Source of the DNA: the human T2T-CHM13v2.0 reference genome, Homo sapiens
Assembly (NCBI RefSeq): GCF_009914755.1
Contig: NC_060932.1
DNA: 64,000 bases
Direction: 5' to 3' (one strand)
Shown here one piece after another: positions 8,545 through 24,462 of the stretch; position 1 is the stretch's first letter, and each line of letters begins with the position of its first letter. Under the pieces are notes generated by a model that did no database searches, was not told where the DNA came from, and saw only the letters and a program-made list of their open reading frames with translations. The translations under genes and the position numbers were made by a program.

Positions 8545-10041
8545 ATTTAAGATATTCAGTGTTTTCAAAGGCAAATGCAAATTACTGTGATAGCATTAAT
8601 CACCTATCAAATCATCAGAATAGATTAGAATGTTGGTAAGCATGCAAATATCCACTAACTCTCTTGAGAGAAAAGTCATAGTGAATAACCAAAAGCCTTA
8701 AAAATGTTCAGATTCCTTGACCTACCGTTGGAAATCAAGGAATTCTAACCTAAATTAATAGGCAGAGATGTACCCCAATATTTAATTACAAGAATATTTA
8801 TCTCACAAAATGTATAATAGCTAAAGAGAAATTATAATTAGCTTAAAAGTCCTGTAATAGAGAATTGGTTAACTAAATTATGATACCTCTAAAATGAAAT
8901 ACCATGCAGTCTTCAGGCAGAGCACGGTGGTTCACTTTGGGTGGCTGAGGCAGGCAGATCACTTGAGGCCAGGAGTTCGAGACCAGCCTGGCCAATATGG
9001 TGAAATCCTGACTCTATGAAAAATACAAAAATTAGCTGGATGTGGTGGCACATGCCTGTAGTCCCAGCTACTTGGGAGGCTAAGGCACAAGAAGTGCTTG
9101 AACCCAGGAGGCAGAGGTTGCAGTGAGCCGAGATTGCACCACTGCACTCCAGCCTGGACAACAGAGCAAGACTCTGTCTAAAAAAGAAAGAAAAGAGAAA
9201 GAAATATTATGCAGTCTTCAATCAGAATGTTGTAGAATGATATTAAACACTTGGCAAGTTGCTCACTCTAAAAGGCTAAGTTCACTTTTAAAAATTAGAC
9301 CATAGTTTATAGATTTGATTCTATTTTTATGTGTAAAAAGGGGAAAAGGTAAGACTCCTAATTATTTAAATAATTGTGAAAAAAGACACGTAACTACTTT
9401 AAAGGTAAACTTCTTAACAAAATCATAGCAAATTAGGATGGAATACAAGTCTATTTAAAGAATTAATACTATAATGCCAATATCTTATTTTGATACTAAA
9501 TCGACTATGTTAGTCAGCAAAAAGACAGATACCAGTATTATTTGAGTTCTCACCCATGAGACTGGATAAAGAAAAAAGTAACCAAGACATGATTATTCAA
9601 AGGAAATAAATATCATTACTTATATGTTATTTATTTGTGTACCTACAAAATCCAACTGAATCAATAAAAATCTTGTAGAAATAATTAGAAAGTTAGATTT
9701 CTGACAAAACTAAATACAATAAGCACACAGTATGAGAGCTGAAACAAGAAGGCAGATTGGAAATCTAGGAATTTTAGTCTAAATGGTCAATGATGTAACT
9801 CCAAGATTTAATTATACAAATAGTTATCTCAACAAAATTTATAATAGCCAAAGAGAAATCATAAGCAGCCAAAAAGTCCTATTCTAAAGAATTGGTTAAC
9901 TAAATTGTGATACCTCTAAAATGAAACACTATGCAGTCTTCAATCGTAATGTTGTAGAATGATATTAAATGCCAGAAGGATGAAAAGATGTGCAGCATCC
10001 CTGGTCATTAAGGAAACGCAAATTAAATCTGCAATGGTATA
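8545..10041 (+). mobile_element. Old L1M fragments (3' ORF2/3' UTR), interrupted
   Basis: AAATGCAAATTA, ATGAAAAGATG..GCAAATTAAA..CAATG motifs; highly diverged. Confidence 0.6.
8916..9200 (+). mobile_element. AluS with 20-bp TSD
   Basis: TSD GAAATACCATGCAGTCTTCA (8896-8915)/GAAATATTATGCAGTCTTCA (9201-9220). Confidence 0.92.
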
Positions 10042-10487
10042 TGTGATGGTTAATACTGAGTGTCAACTTGATTGGATGGAAGGATGCAAAGTATTGATCC
10101 TGCGTGTGTCTGTGAGGGTCTTGCCAAAGGAGAATAACATTTGAGTCAGTGGTCTGGGAAAGACAGACCCACCCTTAATCTGGGTGGACACCACCTAATC
10201 AGCTGCCAGAATGGCCAGAATATGAAACAGGCAGAAAAACATGGAAAGACTACACTGGCCTAGCCTCCCAGCCTACATGTTTCTCCCACACCAGATGCTT
10301 CCTGCCCTCGAACATTGGACTCCAAGTTCCTCAGCTTTGGGCCTTGGACTGGTTTTCTTGCTCCTCAGTTTGCAGATGGCCTATTGAGAGACCTTGTGAT
10401 CAACTGAATTAATACTCTTTAATAAACTCATATATATATATATATCTCCTATTAGTTCTGTCCCTCTAGAGAACCCTGACTAATGCA
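10042..10487 (+). mobile_element. MLT2A1/MLT2A2 (ERVL) solo LTR
   Basis: TGTGATGGTTAATACTGAGTGTCAACTTGATTGG...(TA)n..CTCTAGAGAACCCTGACTAATGCA. Confidence 0.92.
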
Positions 10488-10606
10488 GTAGGCTAAACTA
10501 TGACGTTTGGAAGGTAGGTGTGTTAAATGTATTTTCAACTTATCATATTTTCAACTTACAATGGATTTGTTGGGGTGTAACCCATTGAACCTTGAGGAGT
10601 ATCTGT
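10488..10606 (-). mobile_element. MER47 (Tigger5) 5' fragment
   Basis: Reverse complement reads CAGATACTCCTCAA..GGGTTAC..GTAAGTTGAAAATA..CATAGTTTAGCCTAC. Confidence 0.8.
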
Positions 10607-21530: not shown

Positions 21531-24199
21531 TATATTAGTCCATTTTCATGCTGCTGATAAAGACACACTCAAGACTGGAAAGAAAAAGAGGTTTAACAGA
21601 GTTACAGTTCCACAAGGCTGTGGAGGCCTCATGATCATGGCAAAAGGCAAAGAGGAGCAAGTCACATCTTACATGGATGGTGGCGGGCAAAGAGAGAGCT
21701 TGTGCAGGGCAACTCCCATTTTTAAAACCATCAGTTCTCGTGAGACTCATTCACTATCACAAGAAAAGCACAGGAAAGACCTGCCCCCATAATTCAATCA
21801 CCTCCCATCAGGCTCCTCCCATGACATGTGGGAATTGTGGGAGTTATAATTCAGGATGAGATTTGGGTGGGGACACAGCCAAACCATATCATTCCACCCG
21901 TGGCCCCACCCAAATCTCATGTCCTCACATTTCAAAACTAATCATGCCTTCCCGACAGTCCCCCAAAGTCTTAACTCATTTTAGCATTAACTCAAAAGTC
22001 CACAGTCCAACCCCTCATCTGAGACAAGGCAAGTCCCTTCCACCTATAAGCCTGTGTACTAGTCCATTTTCATGCTGCTGATAAAGACATACCCAAGACT
22101 GGGAAGAAAAAGAGGTTTAATTGGACTTACAGTTCCACATGGCTGGGGAGGCCTCAGAATCATGGCAGGAGGCAAAAGGCACTTCTTACATGGTGGCAAC
22201 AAGAGAAAATGAGGAAGATGCGGAAGCAGAAACCCTGGATAAAACCATCAGATTTCATGAAACTTCTTCACTACCTTGAGAACAGTATCGGGAAAACCGC
22301 TCCCATGATTCAAACTATCTCCTACCATGTCCCTCCCACATGTGGGAATTATGGAAATACAATTCAAGATATTTGTGTGGGGACACAGCCAAGCCATATC
22401 AGCCTGTAAAATCAAAAGCAAGTTAGTTACTTCCTAGATATAATGGGGGTACAGGCATTAGGTAAGTACAGCTGTTCCAAAGGAGAGAAATTGGTGAAAA
22501 CAAAGGGACTACAGGCCCCATGCAAGTCTGAAATCCAGTAGGGCAGTCAAATCTTGAAGCTCCAAAATTATCTCCTTTGACTCCAGGCCTTGCATTCGAG
22601 TCACACAGATGCAAGAGGCGGGTTCCCATGGTCTTGGGCAGCTCTGCCCCTGTAGCTCTGCAGACTACAGCATCCCTCCCAGCTGTTTTCACAAGATGGT
22701 GTTGAGTGTCTGCAGCTTTTCCTGCAGCTGCAGCCTTTCCTGGCACACAGTGCAAGCTGTCAGTGGATCTATCATTCTGGGGACTGGAAGACCATGGCCC
22801 TCTTCTCATAGCTCCACTAGGCCATGCCCCATTAGGGACTCTGTGTGGGGGCTCCGACCCCACATTTCCTTCTGCACTGCCCTAGCAGAGGTTCTCCATG
22901 AGAGCCCCACCCCTATAGCAGACTTCTGCCTGGACATCCAGGTGTTTCCATACATCCTCTGAAATCTAGGCAGTGGTTCCCAAACCTCAATTCTTGACTT
23001 CTGTGAACCCACAGTCTCAACATCACGTACAAGCTGCCAAGGCTTGAGGCTTGCAACCTCTGAAGCTGTGGCCTAAGCTGTACCTCAGCCATTTTTAGTA
23101 ACAGCTGGAGTGGCTGGGATGCAGGGCACCAAGTACCTAGACTGCACACAGCACGGGAACCCTGAGCCTGACCCACAAAACAATATTTTCCTCCTAGGCC
23201 TCTGGGCCTGTGATGGGAGGGGCTGCCATGAAGACCTGTGACACTGGAGACATTTTCCCCATTGTCTTGTCTTAACATTCAGCTCCTCATTACTTTTGCA
23301 AATTTATGCAGCCAGCTTGAATTTCTCCTCAGAAAATGGGATTTTCTTTTCTATCACATTGTCGAGCTGCAAATTTTCCAAACATTTATGCTCTGTTTCT
23401 CTTTTAAAACTGATTGCTCTTAGAGCACCCAAGTCATCTTTTGAATGCTTTGCTGCTTAGAAATTTCTTCCACCAGATACCCTAAATCATCTTTCTCAAA
23501 TTTAAAGTTCCACAAATCTCTAGGGCAGGGGCAAAATTCTGCCAGTCTCTTGGTTAAAACATAACAAGAGTCACCTTTGCTCCAGTTCTCAACAAGTTCT
23601 TCATCTCCATCTGAGACCATCTCAGCCTGGACCTTATCATTCATATTACTGTCAGCATTTTTGTCAAAGCCATTCAACAAGTCTCTTAGAAGTTCCAAAC
23701 TTTCCCACATTTTCTTGTCTTCTTCTGAGCCCTCTAAACTGTTCCAACCTCTGCCTGTTACCCAGTTCCAAAGTTGCTTCCACATTTTTGGGTATCTTTC
23801 AGCAGTGCCCTACTCAATTGGTACCAGTTTACTGTATTAGTCCGTTTTCATGCTGCTGATAAAGACATACTCTAGACTGGAAAGAAAAAGAGGTTTAATG
23901 GACTTACATTCCACATGGGCTGGAGAGGTCTCACAATCACGGCAGAAGGCAAGGAGAAGGAAGTCACATCTTACACGGATGGTGCCAGGCAAAGAGAGAG
24001 CTTGAGCTTGTGCAGGGAAACTCCCATTTTTAAAACCATGAGATCTCGTGAGACTCATTCACTACCATGAGAACAGTGCAGTAAAGACCCTATCCCATAA
24101 TTAAATCACCTCCCACTGGGTTCCTCCCACAACACATGGGAATTGTGGGAGTCACAATTCAAGATGAGATTTGCATGGTGACACAGCCAAACCATATCA
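21531..24199 (-). mobile_element. Full-length THE1B-like MaLR provirus (3' LTR 21531-21891, internal region, 5' LTR 23833-24199)
   Basis: Two homologous LTRs, polypurine tract next to the 3' LTR, THE1-int start GTAAACTGGTACC (reverse), MaLR ORF remnant 23420-23785. Confidence 0.92.
22055..22401 (-). mobile_element. THE1A-like solo LTR nested in the THE1 internal region
   Basis: Perfect TSD GCCTG (22050-22054/22402-22406); central segment differs from the outer LTRs. Confidence 0.9.
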
Positions 24200-24462
24200 C
24201 CTACCCTACTTAAACATGCTCAGAACACTTTCAGTATCCAAAAAATTACATGAGATAGTCAACACTTTATTATAAAATAGGCTTTGTGTTAGATGATTTG
24301 GCTCAGCATCACAAGAGAGTATCATTCTGTATATCACTTGCCTGGGAAAAGACCAAAATTCAAAATTCAAAAAGTGCGGTTTCTACTGAATGTGCCTCGT
24401 TTTTGCACCATCGTAGAGTAAAAAAATTGTAAATTGAACCATTGTAAGTTGAGGACTGTCTG
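24200..24462 (+). mobile_element. MER47 (Tigger5) 3' fragment
   Basis: CCTAC..TTAAACATGCTCAGAACACTT...GAACCATTGTAAGTTGAGGACTGTCTG. Confidence 0.8.

What the first reader, a model, noticed from the sequence alone, without database searches (positions are those of the whole stretch)
10037..24204. ~11-kb inversion (10488-21530) between the 3' tips of two unrelated LTRs, shown by swapped TSDs
Seen: neither LTR element has a matching 5-bp TSD as assembled. MLT2A is flanked by GTATA (10037-41) and GTAGG (10488-92); the THE1 provirus by TATAC (21526-30) and CCTAC (24200-04). Reverse-complementing 10488-21530 restores both perfectly: GTATA-MLT2A-GTATA and CCTAC-THE1-CCTAC. The same flip rejoins two host elements. 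The L1M reads ..GCAAATTAAATCTGCAATGGTATA (+, 10041) into CTAATGCAGTATTCACTAGAATGGCTAAAA (now -, 21525 leftward). The MER47 reads ..CATAGTTTAGCCTAC (now -, 10488-10606) into CCTACTTAAACATGCTCAG (+, 24205). The two breakpoints share only ~13 bp of terminal microhomology (GACTAATGCAGTA vs GACTAATATAGTA). Inference: an inversion through the conserved LTR-terminal motif of an ERVL and a MaLR LTR, after THE1 insertion, without long homology. Microhomology-mediated repair is the simplest mechanism; integrase nicking at the att ends is a speculative alternative.
Basis: partly seen in the sequence, partly recalled or inferred. Interest (0 to 1): 0.8.

Follow-up and report, generated by a model that had tools for sequence, protein, structure and literature searches.

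The report
Clean 11-kb inversion between LTR tips
An 11-kb stretch of human chromosome 8 was flipped long ago by a loss-free exchange at the ends of two old retroviral repeats that share only a short end motif; it is a tidy but ordinary kind of genome rearrangement.

Summary
The element boundaries agree with other genomic copies.

Flipping 10488-21530 in silico restores both 5-bp target-site duplications. It also rejoins two split host repeats base-perfectly:
- L1M-type empty site: one alignment crosses the junction in 17 of 34 other copies, against 0 of 34 for the as-assembled control.
- MER47-type empty site: 21 of 24, against 0 of 24.

No base is lost or gained. The exchange lies in a 4-nt interval, A|GTA (10487-10490 and 21528-21531), inside an imperfect inverted match of 11/13 or 15/19. 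The two LTRs share nothing longer than that tip motif.

The inversion is younger than the THE1-type insertion. That element's LTRs are 84.5% identical, roughly 40 Myr at a recalled rate.

The most likely mechanism is short-homology-guided exchange. This is inferred, not shown.

- The "provirus" carries a nested solo LTR with its own duplication.
- The two LTR families share their terminal motif, so they are not unrelated.

Age, fixation and outgroup state could not be tested here. This is a new member of a known kind; interest is modest.

The parts
9976..10041 (+). Left half of an old L1M-type LINE fragment; its last 5 nt are the GTATA duplication
Evidence: Other genomic copies align from about 9976-9980 to 10036. 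The unflipped join runs straight on into 21525 leftward.
10037..10041 (.). GTATA, left target-site duplication of the MLT2A-type LTR
   Evidence: Its partner is the reverse complement of 21526-21530.
10042..10487 (+). MLT2A-type (ERVL) solo LTR, 446 bp, TG...CA, tip ...CTGACTAATGCA
   Evidence: Boundaries shared with other genomic copies. Those copies are 84-87% identical over the full length.
10487..10490 (.). Left exchange interval A|GTA: the last LTR base plus the first 3 flank bases
   Evidence: It lies between the tip-specific dinucleotide (GC here, AT at the other tip) and the flank-specific dinucleotide (GG here, TA there).
10488..21530 (.). Inverted segment, 11,043 bp; each end is ambiguous by up to 3 nt
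10488..10606 (+). Half A of a MER47-type DNA-transposon relic, now inverted relative to its other half; it begins with GTAGG, the reverse complement of the THE1-type duplication
   Evidence: Forty genomic matches start at 10488-10489. It joins 24205 onward in 21 of 24 loci.
21034..21525 (-). Right half of the same L1M-type fragment, now on the minus strand
21526..21530 (.). TATAC, the reverse complement of the right duplication (GTATA) of the MLT2A-type LTR
21528..21531 (.). Right exchange interval, TACT on the plus strand
   Evidence: same reasoning as for 10487-10490.
21531..21891 (-). 3' LTR of the THE1-type (MaLR) element; its tip reads ...GGACTAATATA on the element strand
   Evidence: Three-way register of the LTR copies (families D11 and D18). 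Boundary against other genomic copies.
21892..23832 (-). Internal part of the THE1-type element, interrupted by the nested LTR
   Evidence: The element is 2,317 bp without the nested insert.
22050..22406 (-). Nested solo LTR 22055-22401, flanked by a perfect duplication GCCTG at 22050-54 and 22402-06
   Evidence: It is 76% identical to either outer LTR.
23833..24199 (-). 5' LTR of the THE1-type element
   Evidence: It is 84.5% identical to the 3' LTR.
24200..24204 (.). CCTAC, the duplication of the THE1-type element; its partner is the reverse complement of 10488-10492
24205..24466 (+). Half B of the MER47-type relic
10480..10490 (+). CTAATGCAGTA (LTR tip plus GTA); its exact reverse complement lies at 21515-21525 at the start of the L1M right half
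   Evidence: None of 17 other L1M-type copies has this string at the homologous place. Unexplained.

Best explanation
This is one real, loss-free inversion of about 11.04 kb.

Original arrangement: an MLT2A-type solo LTR sat inside an L1M-type fragment. A THE1-type element sat, in the opposite orientation, inside a MER47-type relic about 11 kb away. The two LTR 3' tips faced each other across the intervening DNA.

The event: after the THE1-type element had integrated (roughly 40 Myr ago or less), the DNA between the two tips was turned round. The reciprocal exchange lies within the 4 nt A|GTA, that is the last LTR base plus the first three flank bases.

What guided it: a short imperfect inverted match, 11 of 13 or 15 of 19 over a longer span. 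It consists of the terminal motif shared by ERVL and MaLR LTRs plus chance likeness of the two flanks (GTA, then CTAA).

Shown: the ancestral arrangement, the exchange interval, the absence of loss or gain, and the absence of long homology.

Inferred: the exchange was guided by the short homology. Possible routes are annealing of staggered or matching breaks, a crossover in very short homology, or two template switches during replication. I put about 0.65 on short-homology guidance of some kind. The confidence given here is for the inversion itself.
For: - Junction letters.
- Element boundaries.
- L1M-type empty site spans the join in 17 of 34 loci, control 0 of 34. No gap at the join, and the 13 nt after the join occupy the place where other copies have 12-13 nt.
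- MER47-type empty site spans the join in 21 of 24 loci, control 0 of 24, base-perfect against GCCTAG|CCTAC in typical copies.
- No extended similarity between the two LTRs.
- In the computed unflipped region 9000-25500, the left-site 19-mer has only two inverted partners at 14 of 19 or better, and both are THE1-type LTR 3' tips.
- The nested LTR keeps a perfect duplication, and 8 of 19 other MLT2A-type copies do too. Duplications of this age are therefore readable.
- No near-identical paralogue of the locus exists: the next-best genomic matches are 73-87% identical.
Against: - No outgroup or second human assembly could be consulted, so timing and fixation are untested.
- The microhomology is not statistically rare: 17% of 1,500 random 19-mers from the region have an inverted partner at 15 of 19 or better. 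It cannot by itself explain why these two sites were used.
- Better substrates for homologous exchange exist in the present segment: inverted Alu-like pairs of up to 311 nt at 78% (I1-I25). Their age relative to the inversion is unknown.
- A loss-free reciprocal product is not what two independent microhomology end-joinings of blunt breaks would give.
- Family names are recalled, not confirmed by a call.
Confidence: 0.85

Rival explanations
1. The breaks were aimed at the LTR ends. An enzyme that recognises the conserved terminal motif cut both facing tips, and the freed 11-kb piece was religated the other way round. Candidates are an ERVL-type integrase acting on integrated ends, a host nuclease, or a topoisomerase II making 4-nt staggered cuts.
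For: - Both breakpoints lie within 4 nt of an LTR 3' tip, and the product is loss-free. That resembles site-specific cutting more than random breakage.
- Microhomology of this quality is common in the region, so it does not explain the choice of these two sites.
- The 4-nt interval equals the stagger of topoisomerase II cuts (recalled knowledge).
Against: - Established knowledge, recalled: retroviral integrases process free DNA ends and nick only one strand.
- No new duplication marks either junction.
- The THE1-type tip now reads TA, not CA.
- This is a single case. Swapped duplications can only be noticed at element ends, so detection is biased towards such sites.
Confidence: 0.06
2. Two unrelated random double-strand breaks were joined by ordinary non-homologous end joining. 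Their position at the two LTR tips, and the short match there, are coincidence.
For: Seventeen per cent of random 19-mers in the region have an equally good inverted partner. Small inversions without long repeats are common in human genomes (PMC6748972, passages read: 21 of 45 studied inversions are of the non-homologous class).
Against: Both breaks would have to fall in the same 4-nt register of a shared motif, at two element tips, with no base lost or added. My own rough estimate, not a tool result, is about 1e-5 for two random breaks each landing within a few bases of an LTR end.
Confidence: 0.08
3. The arrangement is not an old fixed event. It is either an assembly error or a rare or polymorphic variant of the sequenced genome.
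For: Only one assembly could be read here. My literature searches found no description of this locus either way.
Against: - The junctions are clean and unique, and nothing suggests a collapsed repeat.
- The window for the event is tens of millions of years, so a fixed old event is far more likely a priori than a segregating one (inference).
- A polymorphism would still be the same inversion.
Confidence: 0.05
4. There was no inversion. The matching pentamers are chance, and the L1M-type and MER47-type pieces are unrelated fragments.
For: The duplications alone discriminate at only four positions, because both begin with GTA.
Against: Single alignments cross both computed joins in 17 of 34 and 21 of 24 independent copies. 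They cross the as-assembled controls in 0 of 34 and 0 of 24.
Confidence: 0.01

Closest known systems
Retrotransposon recombination-mediated inversion (RRMI; Lee et al. 2008, PMC2603318; passages read)
   Same: Two retroelements in inverted orientation sit at the two breakpoints. Afterwards their target-site duplications no longer match. The matching state identifies the ancestral arrangement.
   Different: RRMI is homologous recombination inside two Alu or two L1 copies of one family and leaves chimeric elements. Here the elements are LTRs of two different families with no alignable homology. The exchange is at the very tip, and neither element becomes chimeric beyond at most its last base.
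Human inversions of the non-homologous class (Giner-Delgado et al. 2019, PMC6748972; passages read)
   Same: No long inverted repeats at the breakpoints. Presumably a single origin. Kilobase scale.
   Different: That paper reports insertions and deletions accompanying the derived allele of such inversions. This one shows neither loss nor gain. Both of its breakpoints coincide with element termini that share a motif.
Rearrangements between endogenous proviruses detected by mismatched flanks
   Same: LTR elements whose flanking duplications do not match betray a later recombination.
   Different: Those events are homologous recombination between proviruses of one family. Here the shared sequence is about 10-13 nt.
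Alternative (aberrant) transposition inversions of DNA transposons such as Ac/Ds, P and Galileo (Galileo: PMC2775673, search listing only; the others recalled)
   Same: Breakpoints are exactly at element termini, with the ends of two different copies used together.
   Different: Those need a transposase that cuts chromosomal ends, and they create a new duplication at a new target. Here there is no new target, no new duplication, and no known enzyme that cuts integrated LTR ends.

Membership tests
Retrotransposon recombination-mediated inversion (NAHR between inverted repeats) | Two retroelements in inverted orientation at the two breakpoints | tested here: met
   The plus-strand LTR ends at 10487 and the minus-strand LTR starts at 21531.
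Retrotransposon recombination-mediated inversion (NAHR between inverted repeats) | Extended homology between the two elements, giving chimeric elements | tested here: not met
   blastn of one LTR against the other found only a 7-nt exact match at the tips and nothing above chance elsewhere.
Retrotransposon recombination-mediated inversion (NAHR between inverted repeats) | Swapped target-site duplications that match again when the segment is flipped | tested here: met
   3 of 5 plus 3 of 5 as assembled; 5 of 5 plus 5 of 5 after the flip.
Non-homologous / microhomology-mediated inversion | No long inverted repeats at the breakpoints | tested here: met
   None of the 25 longest inverted pairs touches a breakpoint.
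Non-homologous / microhomology-mediated inversion | Short shared sequence (a few to about 20 nt) at the exchange point | tested here: met
   A 4-nt identical interval within an 11 of 13 and 15 of 19 match.
Non-homologous / microhomology-mediated inversion | Repair pathway (end joining or template switching) actually used | not testable with these tools
   The sequence gives only the product. A loss-free reciprocal product fits staggered matching breaks, a short-homology crossover or a double template switch equally well.
Enzyme-mediated inversion at element termini (alternative transposition type) | Breakpoints exactly at element ends | tested here: inconclusive
   The interval includes the tip/flank boundary but is 4 nt wide.
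Enzyme-mediated inversion at element termini (alternative transposition type) | New target-site duplication at a new insertion point | tested here: not met
   Both computed empty sites are base-perfect with no extra duplicated bases.
LTR retroelements with 5-bp duplications (ERVL / MaLR class) | TG...CA termini and a 5-bp target-site duplication | tested here: met
   - MLT2A-type: TG...CA.
- THE1-type: the 5' end fits and the 3' tip now reads TA.
- The nested LTR has a perfect GCCTG duplication.
- 8 of 19 other MLT2A-type copies have perfect 5-bp duplications.
- Assignment to the named families is recalled, because no repeat library was on hand.

The most novel reading that the evidence does not exclude
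The conserved 3' termini of ERVL and MaLR LTRs are preferred sites of precise breakage or strand exchange long after integration. The cause could be that an ERVL-type integrase or a host enzyme still recognises them. Facing LTR tips would then repeatedly produce loss-free inversions, and this locus would be the first recognised case. The evidence does not exclude this. Both breakpoints sit within 4 nt of the tips, nothing is lost, and equally good microhomology is common elsewhere in the region.
Probability: 0.06. Interest if true: 0.7.

Novelty: new member of a known kind. Interest (0 to 1): 0.3.

Why it matters
- **As an example:** an ancient inversion can be proved from a single genome, using swapped 5-bp duplications together with two split host repeats.
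- **For mechanism:** it shows that the 10-nt terminal motif shared by two different LTR families can be the site of a reciprocal, loss-free exchange.
- **If the pattern recurs:** recurrence at other facing LTR tips would point to a so far unrecognised fragility or enzyme recognition of old LTR ends.
- **Functional effect:** none is evident. The segment lies in an intron of a predicted lncRNA. It carries one RefSeq-listed enhancer at 15120-15728 (hub annotation), whose action should not depend on orientation.

Tried and rejected
- **Staggered-break model.** I asked whether the 11-nt identity at 10480-10490 and 21515-21525 marks an inverted duplication made by the inversion. Flipping between those repeats instead restores neither the THE1-type duplication nor the L1M-type spacing, so I rejected it (reasoning).
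- **A local micro-inversion in MER47 half B.** In some searches an ~80-nt piece (24226-24305) is inverted relative to many copies. Other genomic copies (L028, L030, L031, L032, L036) share the window's arrangement along its length. It is therefore a subfamily trait, not a local event.
- **Odd THE1-type match.** One match runs 29 nt past the tip. On alignment its flank only loosely resembles the L1M piece. I did not pursue it.
- **Supplementary tables.** Its list of human-chimpanzee inversions, which might include this locus, could not be checked. Supplements of PMC6748972 were not opened.
- **Literature.** Searches for this locus, or for LTR-tip inversions, found nothing specific.
- **Family names.** No repeat-family library was available, so MLT2A, THE1, L1M and MER47 are unverified names.
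- **Genome-wide survey.** I judged a survey for other swapped-duplication LTR pairs infeasible with the fetch limits and did not attempt it.
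Full report
**What is in the sequence**

- GTATA (10037-41) precedes a 446-bp LTR running from TG at 10042 to CA at 10487. 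GTAGG follows it (10488-92).
- TATAC (21526-30) precedes a minus-strand LTR element at 21531-24199. CCTAC follows it (24200-04), and a second CCTAC comes after that (24205-09).

As assembled, each element's two flanks agree at only 3 of 5 positions. Reverse-complementing 10488-21530 makes both pairs 5 of 5. Both duplications start with GTA, so they discriminate at only four positions in all. They are suggestive by themselves, not decisive.

**Are the element boundaries right?**

I compared each end with other copies in the same genome.
- MLT2A-type LTR: homology begins at 10042. It ends at 10487/10488 in 21 of 39 non-self matches, and none reaches beyond 10501.
- Among 19 other copies laid out end to end, 10 end in CTGACTAATACA. 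One ends in ...ATGCA, like the window's copy.
- Of those 19 copies, 8 have a perfect 5-bp duplication and 2 more have 4 of 5. Two are followed by what appears to be the element's internal sequence. A 5-bp duplication is therefore the family norm and is still readable at this age.
- THE1-type element: homology starts at 21528-21534 in 31 of 39 matches. It ends at 24197-24204 in 38 of 39, and exactly at 24199 in 17.

No repeat library was available to confirm them.

**Anatomy of the 'provirus'**

The region holds three LTR copies in register: 21531-21891, 22055-22401 and 23833-24199 (families D11 and D18).
- The middle one is a solo LTR nested in the internal part. It has its own perfect duplication, GCCTG, at 22050-54 and 22402-06.
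- It is only 76% identical to either outer LTR, which suggests another subfamily.
- Without it the outer element is 2,317 bp.
- The outer LTRs are 84.5% identical, K2P 0.176. At a recalled rate of 2.2e-9 per site per year, that is about 40 Myr. This is the upper bound for the age of the inversion.

**The decisive test: do the host repeats rejoin?**

I computed the unflipped 'empty sites' in scripts and compared them with other genomic copies of the same repeats. The as-assembled neighbours served as controls.
- **L1M-type fragment** (9941-10041 joined to the reverse complement of 21326-21525): a single alignment crossed the join in 17 of 34 loci, and in 0 of 34 for the control. The alignments have no gap at the join. 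The 13 nt after it occupy the place where other copies have 12-13 nt before the conserved CACTAGAATGG.
- **MER47-type relic** (reverse complement of 10488-10620 joined to 24205-24404): 21 of 24 loci spanned the join, and 0 of 24 for the control. Typical copies read GCCTAG|CCTACCTTAAAC there. The tandem pentamer in the window is therefore native to the family, and the restored site is base-perfect.

No near-identical paralogue of the locus exists in the genome. The next-best matches are 73-87% identical. The inversion is therefore real, single and loss-free.

**Where exactly was the exchange?**

Read on the element strands, the two present junctions are:
- GACTAATGCAGTAGGCTAA (10478-10496), and
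- GACTAATATAGTATACTAA (reverse complement of 21522-21540).

They agree at 15 of 19 positions. The two mismatch blocks are GC/AT, two bases inside the tip, and GG/TA, at positions 4-5 of the flank. If those differences predate the event, the exchange lies in the 4 nt between them, A|GTA (10487-10490 and 21528-21531).

The two LTRs have no other alignable similarity. The best exact match at the tips is the 7-nt GACTAAT, and everything else is at chance level. They are not unrelated, however. The typical MLT2A-type tip and the THE1-type 5' LTR tip in the window (family D11) share the 10 nt GACTAATACA.

**How unusual is the microhomology?**

In the computed unflipped region 9000-25500, the left-site 19-mer has only two inverted partners at 14 of 19 or better. 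One is the THE1-type 3' LTR tip that was used. The other is the junction of the 5' LTR with the internal sequence (23824-23842).

Against that, 17% of 1,500 random 19-mers from the region have some inverted partner at 15 of 19 or better. The match is the kind of short homology seen at many rearrangement junctions. It is not a statistical outlier.

What stands out is that both breakpoints fall at LTR 3' tips, in the same register, with nothing lost. There is also an ascertainment bias: swapped duplications can only be noticed at element ends.

**Mechanism**

Shown:
- the ancestral arrangement;
- the order of events, with both integrations first and the inversion later;
- the exchange interval;
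- no gain or loss;
- no long homology.

Inferred: the short shared motif guided the exchange.

Two independent microhomology joinings of blunt breaks cannot both keep the shared 4 nt. The loss-free reciprocal product therefore points to one of three routes:
- breaks in the same register, or staggered over the 4 nt, that annealed crosswise;
- a crossover in very short homology;
- two template switches at the same inverted pair during replication.

I cannot tell these apart. Together I give them about 0.65.

Tip-directed enzymatic cutting (integrase, nuclease or topoisomerase II) fits the geometry. To my knowledge there is no precedent for such cutting on integrated LTR ends, and it leaves no new duplication. 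I give it about 0.06. Pure coincidence of two random breaks gets about 0.08. An assembly error or a private variant gets about 0.05.

**An unexplained detail**

CTAATGCAGTA stands at 10480-10490 (the LTR tip plus GTA). Its exact reverse complement stands at 21515-21525, at the start of the L1M-type right half. In the unflipped state these would form two tandem 13-nt units, 12 of 13 identical.

None of 17 other L1M-type copies has that string at the homologous place. They typically read CTACTACA-TACC. So the L1M sequence was already somewhat similar to the tip. The extra identities suggest a short conversion or slippage between the neighbouring units before the inversion. That is only a guess.

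An alternative flip between these 11-nt repeats restores neither the THE1-type duplication nor the L1M spacing. I rejected it.

**Comparison with what is known**

The logic of mismatched duplications revealing an inversion between two retroelements is established for Alu and L1 (RRMI; PMC2603318, passages read). Those events are homologous recombination within one family and give chimeric elements. That defining feature was tested here and not met.

The event fits the class of inversions without long inverted repeats (PMC6748972, passages read). Its particular features are that it is loss-free and sits at two LTR tips.

Five literature searches found no description of this locus or of LTR-tip inversions. 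The supplementary inversion list of PMC2603318 could not be opened. Supplements of PMC6748972 were not opened. The locus may therefore be listed there without my knowing.

**Verdict**

- The mechanism is plausible but unproven.
- Age is at most about 40 Myr, with no lower bound.
- Fixation and the outgroup state are untested.

This is a well-documented new member of a known kind, of modest interest (0.3). The bold reading, that old LTR tips are preferred exchange sites, stays open at about 0.06.

Noticed in passing
22050-22406: A solo LTR of a different subfamily (76% identical to the outer LTRs) is nested in the internal part of the THE1-type element. It has a perfect 5-bp duplication, GCCTG.
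   Followed up: yes
24226-24305; loci L034, L035, L037-L040 versus L028-L032, L036: Genomic copies of the MER47-type repeat come in two structural forms that differ by the orientation of an ~80-nt internal piece. That piece is 90-94% identical to the window's in the opposite-orientation form, while the flanks are only about 75-83% identical.
   Followed up: partly
10480-10490 and 21515-21525: An exact 11-nt inverted identity (LTR tip plus 3 nt, against the start of the L1M-type right half). In the unflipped state it would be a 13-nt tandem, 12 of 13 identical. None of 17 other L1M-type copies has it. Origin unexplained.
   Followed up: partly
23824-23842: The junction of the THE1-type 5' LTR with the internal sequence matches the left breakpoint motif about as well (15 of 19, 12 of 13 at the core) as the 3' LTR tip that was actually used.
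   Followed up: no
8813-8915 and 9198-9247 versus 9840-9969: Local repeats just left of the finding: 8813-8915 is 87% identical to 9840-9942, and 9198-9247 is 90% identical to 9920-9969. This may be a small local duplication or neighbouring fragments of one LINE.
   Followed up: no
L085 (G000:C1:63692150-63692560): Another THE1-type LTR copy whose flank next to the 3' tip loosely resembles the L1M-type piece that now adjoins the window's THE1-type tip. Probably chance.
   Followed up: partly
L071, L073 and window 10488-10498: Two of 19 other MLT2A-type copies also have GCTAAA a few bases after the 3' tip, as the window now does. This is chance or a weak target preference.
   Followed up: no
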